Below, piece by piece: positions 2,751 through 6,765 of a stretch of DNA of 64,000 nucleotides. The position numbers were made by a program, and so were the translations under genes. The first letter of the stretch is position 1. Each line of letters starts with the position of its first letter. The notes under the pieces are model-generated. The model was not told the DNA's origin. It saw nothing but the letters and a program-made list of their open reading frames with translations, and made no database searches. The DNA lies in contig CM082582.2 in the NCBI GenBank assembly GCA_040954595.2, forward strand, positions 4,944,303-5,008,302, written 5' to 3'. This DNA is from Balanoglossus misakiensis. Lineage: Eukaryota > Animalia > Hemichordata.

Positions 2751-6765
<4,015 letters not shown>

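What the first reader, a model, noticed from the sequence alone, without database searches (positions are those of the whole stretch)
6751..6765. Both IFI44-like GTPases end in a CaaX box (CSIL*), predicting geranylgeranylation
Seen: gene A ends ASGVCSIL* and gene B (18321-18335, minus strand) ends ASGSCSIL*; CSIL is kept while neighbouring residues differ. Established: CaaL directs geranylgeranyltransferase I, and GBP1/2/5 use CaaX prenylation to coat pathogen-containing membranes. I do not recall a CaaX on vertebrate IFI44. Inference: convergent acquisition of GBP-like membrane targeting in the IFI44 family.
Basis: partly seen in the sequence, partly recalled or inferred. Interest (0 to 1): 0.75.

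Follow-up and report, generated by a model that had tools for sequence, protein, structure and literature searches.

The report
Lipid-anchored IFI44-like GTPases of acorn worms
Two duplicated genes here encode distant relatives of the human antiviral protein IFI44 and end in a four-residue lipid-attachment signal that is also kept in many related acorn-worm proteins, so these enzymes are likely tied to cell membranes by a lipid tail, possibly for defence.

Summary
In detail: both genes end CSIL*. Real support comes from relatives. All 18 homologues found are acorn-worm proteins; 10 have Cys at -4 (none at -1 to -3 or -5 to -8), always followed by an aliphatic a2, on tails of 12 to 87 residues, in lineages 28-51% identical. 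One gain or loss explains the pattern on the tree (support moderate). The GTPase domain is IFI44-type (Atlas TM 0.82-0.84), but TLDc is replaced by one to three ubiquitin-like repeats. Prenylation is likely; CSIL is a published GGTase-I substrate in plant ROPs. The last residue varies (L, M, I, A), so the lipid anchor, not geranylgeranyl itself, is what is conserved. 'GBP-like coating' is not supported: there is no helical stalk. Expression, prenylation and an immune role are untested. The scan's index held no earlier IFI44-plus-CaaX finding; other notes report other membrane anchors on IFI44-type domains. New variant of a known kind.

The parts
6751..6765 (+). Gene A CaaX box and stop (CSIL*)
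18321..18335 (-). Gene B CaaX box and stop (CSIL*)
6485..6765 (+). Gene A last coding exon: G4 (THID), ANCD loop, last helix, 10-residue linker, CSIL*
5735..6065 (+). Gene A exon with likely switch I Thr and G3 (DVPGQ)
5329..5420 (+). Gene A exon with G1 P-loop (GAPGHGKSS)
4440..4473 (+). Gene A predicted small linker exon
   Evidence: splice sites and phase only
4192..4265 (+). Gene A predicted acidic linker exon
   Evidence: splice sites and phase only
2751..3128 (+). Gene A predicted upstream exon, 125-aa domain unrelated to gene B's N-terminus; TRADD-N-like by recalled motif only
   Evidence: splice sites and phase; Pfam, PDB and fold prediction inconclusive
2492..2569 (+). Candidate further upstream exon of gene A (phase 1 to phase 1); gene A's start was not found
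22334..22499 (-). Gene B predicted first coding exon (ATG at 22499)
20283..20540 (-). Gene B exon encoding a ubiquitin-like repeat, 42% identical to the N-terminus of P0001
19666..19757 (-). Gene B G1 exon
18896..19226 (-). Gene B G2/G3 exon (DVPGQ)
18321..18601 (-). Gene B last coding exon: G4 (THID), ANYD, linker, CSIL*
18165..18170 (-). AATAAA 151 nt after gene B's stop, candidate poly(A) signal
5067..5259 (.). (GATT)n repeat where A/B similarity begins (partner 19830-20016): likely edge of the inverted duplication

Best explanation
The two genes are recent inverted duplicates from an acorn-worm family that joins ubiquitin-like repeats to an IFI44-type GTPase domain, and their conserved C-terminal CaaX is likely prenylated (here most likely geranylgeranylated), which would anchor a small, stalk-less GTPase on the cytosolic face of internal membranes, probably as part of cell defence. 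Shown: the CSIL* ends, intact G1-G4 motifs, the family, conservation of Cys -4 and aliphatic a2. Inferred, with my odds: the window proteins are made and prenylated (0.85); by GGTase-I rather than FTase (0.75 given prenylation); the lipid gives endomembrane rather than plasma-membrane location, because the tail has no polybasic patch or second cysteine (0.65); the role is immune (0.55). Mechanism I commit to: after prenylation, aaX cleavage and methylation, the G domain sits on ER/Golgi/endosomal membranes and acts as a GTP-dependent switch or small oligomer in the manner of GIMAP/Toc34-type GTPases, with the ubiquitin-like repeat (gene B) or a swapped N-terminal domain (gene A) as the partner-binding module. 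The other half of the family lacks the anchor and would be soluble.
For: Cys at -4 in 10 of 18 homologues and at no other of the last eight positions; a2 is V/I/L in 10 of 10; Cys is 1.7% of residues. Seven CaaX lineages are 28-51% identical and span 7.3 substitutions per site of tree; tails run 12-87 residues. Within a close Glandiceps group (71-86% identical) aaX changed QIM/QVM/TLA with Cys kept. One change on the G-domain tree built without tails (70/77; 78/76 and 57/43 with rows left out); the last ubiquitin-like repeats of the seven CaaX-bearing proteins in that tree also fall on one side of a branch (92/80). Homologues P0006 and P0019 stop at the same distance (14) from the core as the window genes. 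The model of P0006 has a low-confidence, probably free tail (319-325). Atlas structure search of the G domain of P0001 (50% identical to gene B): TLDc+G clusters and clusters named interferon-induced protein 44 / 44-like, TM 0.82-0.84 over 213-215 of 226 residues. CSIL-ending plant ROPs are geranylgeranylated in vitro. Immune hints: 10 paralogues on one Glandiceps sequence, neighbours with GT4-conflict and DED domains.
Against: No expression, prenylation or localisation data. dN/dS between A and B is 1.05 and A's branch is five times B's, which fits diversifying selection but also relaxed constraint. 8 of 18 homologues have no CaaX, so the family can work without it. The CaaX/non-CaaX branch is never starred. 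No second membrane signal in the window tails (1 basic, 0 Cys in 15 residues); a CaaX alone did not put an OAS1 construct on the Golgi (PMC8357416 passage) and CSIL-ending CrROP3/5 were nuclear. Ubiquitin-like assignment is weak per domain (best E 6e-4 summed over two copies, N-terminal half only). Atlas names are automatic and both sides are predicted models. The immune role rests on family kinship and neighbourhood only.
Confidence: 0.7

Rival explanations
1. The CaaX is functional in the family, but the lipid serves as a protein-binding handle or the proteins do a non-immune job (trafficking, development), with little stable membrane binding.
For: No polybasic or palmitoylation signal in the window tails; CSIL-ending CrROP3/5 were nuclear; OAS1 common+CTIL stayed cytosolic and nuclear; human IFI44's G1 was dispensable for its antiviral effect (10.1101/2020.02.24.963900 section 27).
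Against: CaaX proteins are generally sent to endomembranes; tandem expansion and domain swapping fit conflict genes (PMC8195603 section 11).
Confidence: 0.14
2. The window's copies are relaxed or silent duplicates; CSIL is inherited from a prenylated ancestor but is no longer under selection here.
For: dN/dS 1.05; CSIL retention between A and B expected by chance about half the time; gene A has no identified start.
Against: No stop or frameshift in 233 codons of either copy and all splice sites and G motifs intact; gene B is complete from ATG to a candidate poly(A) signal.
Confidence: 0.1
3. One reading: these proteins coat pathogen-containing membranes the way GBP1/2/5 do.
For: CaaL end on an immunity-type GTPase; mitofusin G domains lead the VIA lists (Z 15.5-16.2, rmsd 3.1-3.3, 193-201 aligned), about tied with EF-Tu, Toc34 and GIMAP.
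Against: No middle domain or GED: 14 residues separate the last helix from the end, whereas GBP2's CaaX ends a long helical region; nearest Atlas models are IFI44-type.
Confidence: 0.05
4. CSIL* is a reading artefact: the real transcript leaves the exon at the GT inside TTG TAA and continues in another exon.
For: A GT dinucleotide does lie there in both copies; no transcript was available.
Against: 4 of 9 consensus match against 7-8 of 9 for the nine modelled donors; annotated homologues end at the equivalent position with a CaaX.
Confidence: 0.02

Closest known systems
IFI44 / IFI44L and invertebrate 'interferon-induced protein 44-like' proteins
   Same: G domain: nearest Atlas models are TLDc+G and IFI44-named clusters, TM 0.82-0.84; feature score 0.94 to an IFI44-like cluster. 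G1 GxxxxGKS, G3 DxxG and a TxxD-type G4.
   Different: No TLDc (IFI44 has one near the N-terminus: PMC12139955 figure legend); one to three ubiquitin-like repeats instead; residue after G3 is Gln here and variable in the family, against Leu in IFI44/IFI44L; a CaaX in 10 of 18 relatives. That human IFI44 has no CaaX is recalled, not checked here.
Guanylate-binding proteins GBP1/2/5
   Same: GTPase with a C-terminal CaaX; GBP2 and GBP5 are GGTase-I substrates; the motif is also lost in some lineages (bat GBP5, PMC13128109 passages).
   Different: GBPs have a large G domain plus helical middle and effector domains; these proteins have neither. Analogy in the anchor only.
GIMAP/AIG1 and Toc34 GTPases
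   Same: Top Foldseek matches among solved structures (GIMAP2 E 2.9e-7, Toc34 E 1.1e-6); small G domain with a C-terminal membrane anchor in some members.
   Different: Mammalian GIMAPs use transmembrane tails and have no prenylation motif (PMC3804274 passage); Pfam AIG1 stays under its cut-off (best 23.7 of 27 bits).
OAS1 p46 and ZAP-L (antiviral proteins with CaaX and non-CaaX forms)
   Same: A CaaX separates an anchored from a soluble form of a defence protein (PMC8357416 passages; ZAP from the search listing only).
   Different: There the forms are splice isoforms of RNA sensors; here they are paralogous GTPases.

Membership tests
CaaX substrates of GGTase-I | Cys four residues from the C-terminus, aliphatic a2, X = Leu | tested here: met
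   CSIL* in both genes; same tetrapeptide modified by plant PGGT-I
CaaX substrates of GGTase-I | Small, flexible, mostly hydrophilic linker of about 11 residues before the Cys | tested here: met
   By inspection: IDNNTVASGV / IDNNTDASGS against the description in PMC1175975; no predictor was run
CaaX substrates of GGTase-I | Motif conserved in homologues | tested here: met
   10 of 18 Cys at -4; X is L in 2, M in 6, I in 1, A in 1, so prenylation, not the lipid type, is conserved
CaaX substrates of GGTase-I | Transcript really ends in this exon | tested here: inconclusive
   Only indirect support: weak cryptic donor, homologue stop position, AATAAA after gene B
CaaX substrates of GGTase-I | Isoprenoid attached in cells | not testable with these tools
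   needs labelling or mass spectrometry
IFI44/IFI44L | IFI44-type G domain | tested here: met
   Atlas structure and feature searches of P0001 85-310 and P0006 (score 0.89); tested on homologues, with predicted models and automatic names
IFI44/IFI44L | N-terminal TLDc domain | tested here: not met
   No TLD hit in window exons or homologues; ubiquitin-like repeats fill that place. Hence 'IFI44-type G domain', not an IFI44 proper
IFI44/IFI44L | Hydrophobic Leu after G3 DxxG | tested here: not met
   Gln in both window genes; Q, T, H, G, A, P, R, L, K or S across the 20 rows; IFI44 state
IFI44/IFI44L | Direct sequence alignment or tree with named IFI44 proteins | tested here: inconclusive
   No named IFI44 protein reached E 0.001, so none could be aligned
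IFI44/IFI44L | Induction by interferon or virus | not testable with these tools
   no expression data
GBP | Helical middle domain and GED between G domain and CaaX | tested here: not met
   14 residues after the last helix; model of P0006 ends with helix 291-316
GBP | C-terminal CaaX (GBP1/2/5) | tested here: met
GIMAP/AIG1 | Pfam AIG1 above curated cut-off | tested here: not met
   best 23.7 bits against 27 (P0020)
Ras-like small GTPases | NKxD G4 and invariant Gln after G3 | tested here: not met
   G4 is THxD-type; Gln in 8 of 20 rows only; Ras consensus recalled, Gln feature also
Ubiquitin-like (beta-grasp) domain | Profile similarity and beta-beta-alpha-beta-beta order | tested here: met
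   55 of 57 PDB matches at E<=10 are ubiquitin, Ubl or MoaD, best E 6.4e-4; strand/helix order; weak, no separate fold search of this domain

The most novel reading that the evidence does not exclude
IFI44-type GTPase domains do their work on membranes, and lineages have reached the membrane by different devices. Acorn worms did it with a prenyl tail and keep anchored and soluble paralogues side by side, each with ubiquitin-like repeats that act as decoy or scaffold. This would make the family a new class of prenylated defence GTPase and give a simple handle (one cysteine) on the open question of how IFI44 proteins act.
Probability: 0.25. Interest if true: 0.75.

Novelty: new variant of a known kind. 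Interest (0 to 1): 0.52.

Why it matters
IFI44 proteins restrict viruses by a mechanism that is not understood, and they are described as mainly cytoplasmic. A family with the same GTPase domain that has held a lipid-anchor signal across deeply diverged acorn-worm paralogues points to membranes as the site of action, and comes with a natural control (paralogues without the signal) and a one-residue test. It also adds a further case of defence proteins gaining or losing a CaaX, beside GBPs, OAS1 and ZAP. The limits are that CaaX gain is a known theme and that nothing is shown experimentally.

Tried and rejected
No whole genome is held for this window, so no genome-wide paralogue count or background of C-termini. 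No RNA holder was listed; this is no evidence on expression. Word-index homologue searches with single exons found nothing; the exhaustive profile search did (15 hits, of which P0009, a bacterial Ig-repeat protein, and P0015, a low-complexity repeat protein, were dropped as spurious). P0012 lacks the end of the last helix and may be a truncated model; it is counted as non-CaaX. P0002 and P0013 lack G1 and are probably partial models; they are counted as CaaX. Metagenome scan: 32 pattern matches, none confirmed. GBPs are not among the rows shown in the fold searches, which does not exclude them; the viral library gave only generic GTPases. The Gln after G3 suggested a Ras-like catalytic residue; rejected because it varies in the family. 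Gene A's upstream domain: single-sequence model pLDDT 45, no PDB match, no TRADD-N Pfam match. The complex predictor was not available, so dimer formation was not modelled. Rejected: using A versus B as evidence of conservation. Literature: IFI44+CaaX gave 9 papers, none on this by title or abstract start; others (0 papers) listed nothing on a prenylated IFI44-type or hemichordate ubiquitin-GTPase family; only listings were seen for most, subscription journals are not covered and supplements were not read (PMC8195603's source tables might list such architectures).

Full report
Observation. Both coordinates read CSIL followed by TAA. Each lies at the end of a spliced GTPase gene: gene A on the plus strand (shared exons 5329-5420, 5735-6065, 6485-6765) and gene B on the minus strand (22499-22334, 20540-20283, 19757-19666, 19226-18896, 18601-18321; 375 codons from ATG to stop). 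All modelled junctions are GT-AG and keep frame, and G1 (GAPGHGKSS), G3 (DVPGQ) and G4 (THID) are intact in both. The exon models are mine, from splice sites, phase and homology; no transcript was available.

The pair is not independent evidence. The three shared exons are 653/704 nt and 197/233 aa identical, the CSIL codons are identical at every base, and 130 of 230 four-residue windows are unchanged. Nei-Gojobori dN/dS is 1.05, and the chance of no replacement in those four codons is 0.42-0.58. Similarity starts at a (GATT)n repeat upstream of the G1 exon and ends about 40 nt after the stop, so A and B are one recent inverted duplication with different 5' exons.

Relatives. A profile of the two last exons against 1.84 billion representatives gave 15 hits; 13 are true homologues and two were dropped as spurious. 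Cluster look-ups and a second search added five. All 18 are 'uncharacterized' proteins of two acorn worms, Ptychodera flava (8) and Glandiceps talaboti (10, all on one sequence of the same length). The closest, P0001, is 50% identical to gene B in the G domain, so the window is probably from an acorn worm; I did not establish that further.

The CaaX is under selection in the family. Ten of 18 homologues have Cys at -4 (CTVI, CQIM four times, CLVL, CLLM, CQVM, CTLA, CSVL); none has Cys at -1 to -3 or -5 to -8; a2 is V, I or L in all ten; Cys makes up 1.7% of residues. Collapsing near-copies leaves seven CaaX lineages, the window pair included, at 28-51% identity, spanning 7.3 substitutions per site, with tails of 12, 14, 20, 22, 23, 48 and 87 residues after the last helix. 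A motif that stays at the very end while the tail changes sevenfold in length is not chance. On a tree built without tails, one gain or loss separates the 12 CaaX rows from the 8 others (support 70/77; 78/76 without the long branch P0020 and 57/43 without five fragments and near-copies). The last ubiquitin-like repeats give a matching split for the CaaX-bearing proteins (92/80). The root is unknown, so gain and loss cannot be told apart, and the branch is never strongly supported. X varies (L, M, I, A), so the family conserves prenylation rather than one lipid.

Is the stop real? A GT lies inside TTG TAA, but matches 4 of 9 donor positions against 7-8 for the nine modelled donors. P0006 and P0019 stop at the same distance from the core, and gene B has AATAAA 151 nt downstream.

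What family. An AlphaFold model of P0006 (mean pLDDT 85.7) shows a small strand-helix domain, a G domain, a last helix and a low-confidence tail. Solved-structure searches give generic TRAFAC GTPases: GIMAP2, EF-Tu and Toc34 by Foldseek, mitofusins narrowly first by VIA. The Atlas is more specific: the G domain of P0001 matches mollusc TLDc+G clusters and chordate clusters named interferon-induced protein 44 or 44-like at TM 0.82-0.84 over 213-215 of 226 residues, and scores 0.94 by features to an IFI44-like cluster (one search gave 0.89 for whole P0006). So the domain is IFI44-type. It is not IFI44 proper: no TLDc in any Pfam scan, and the residue after G3 is not the Leu reported for IFI44. 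In place of TLDc, 16 of 18 homologues and gene B carry one to three repeats whose profile matches ubiquitin-fold chains in 55 of 57 PDB hits, best E 6.4e-4. Gene A has no such repeat.

How it likely works. CaaL points to GGTase-I, though FTase can take some Leu-ending motifs (PMC1175975 passages); CSIL itself was geranylgeranylated, not farnesylated, on two plant ROPs in vitro (10.1101/2023.09.04.554920 passages). The ten residues before the Cys are mostly small and polar, as that enzyme needs. There is no polybasic patch or second Cys, so I expect endomembranes and a reversible hold. Two published cases warn that a CaaX alone does not fix location. With no helical stalk these proteins cannot build a GBP-type coat as GBP architecture is described (PMC12571816 passages); a membrane-bound switch or small oligomer like GIMAP or Toc34 fits the anatomy better, but this step is inference. 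The immune role is inferred from IFI44 kinship, tandem expansion, N-terminal swapping and neighbours with GT4-conflict and DED domains (PMC8195603 section 11 and passages).

Novelty. Ten literature searches (listings seen, plus passages or one section of 13 papers) showed no report of a prenylated IFI44-type protein or of this family. CaaX gain and loss in defence proteins is known (GBP5 in bats; OAS1 p46). The scan's index held no IFI44-plus-CaaX finding and no look-alike sequence; unverified notes on a sea-urchin Ig-transmembrane IFI44-type protein and a myristoylation-type shark family shaped the novel case, and Atlas rows with Ig domains on IFI44-like clusters agree in part. Verdict: real, conserved motif; a new variant of a known kind; interest 0.52.

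Noticed in passing
window 3-662 (+), 2492-2569, 2751-3128: A GT4-conflict glycosyltransferase ORF (Pfam E 5e-14) has a weak phase-1 donor after base 630 (5 of 9) that would join it in frame to gene A's upstream exons, giving GT4 - TRADD-N-like - GTPase - CaaX. GT4-TRADD-N proteins and TRADD-N-GTPase fusions are described in hemichordates and other marine invertebrates (PMC8195603). The TRADD-N label is from a recalled motif only.
   Followed up: partly
window 12486-14053 (-): Death-effector-domain gene (at least three DED matches over two ORFs) between genes A and B.
   Followed up: no
homologues P0003, P0004, P0007, P0010, P0014, P0018 (also inside the tails of P0005 and P0008): Members without CaaX end in a short G-x-(V/I)-x-(I/V) stretch right after the last helix; P0005 has it followed by a long tail and CaaX, suggesting loss of the anchor by truncation.
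   Followed up: partly
window 5329-6765 versus 18321-19757: dN/dS about 1 between the copies, differences densest in the first 180 nt (G1 to switch I) and a 96-nt identical run near the end, which may reflect diversifying selection or gene conversion.
   Followed up: partly
window 23702-42751: About 19 kb array of an 88-bp satellite at 93% identity, directly upstream of gene B.
   Followed up: no
window 6158-6335 and 18643-18816: An imperfect palindromic element of about 175 bp inside the last intron of both genes, possibly a small inverted-repeat transposon that predates the duplication.
   Followed up: no
window 9712-10000 (+), 49665-51269 (-), 60515-63892 (+): Exons that look like an organic-anion transporter C-terminus, an alpha/beta-hydrolase (ABHD4/5-like) and ankyrin repeats in a 231-bp exon-intron repeat; labels by eye.
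   Followed up: no
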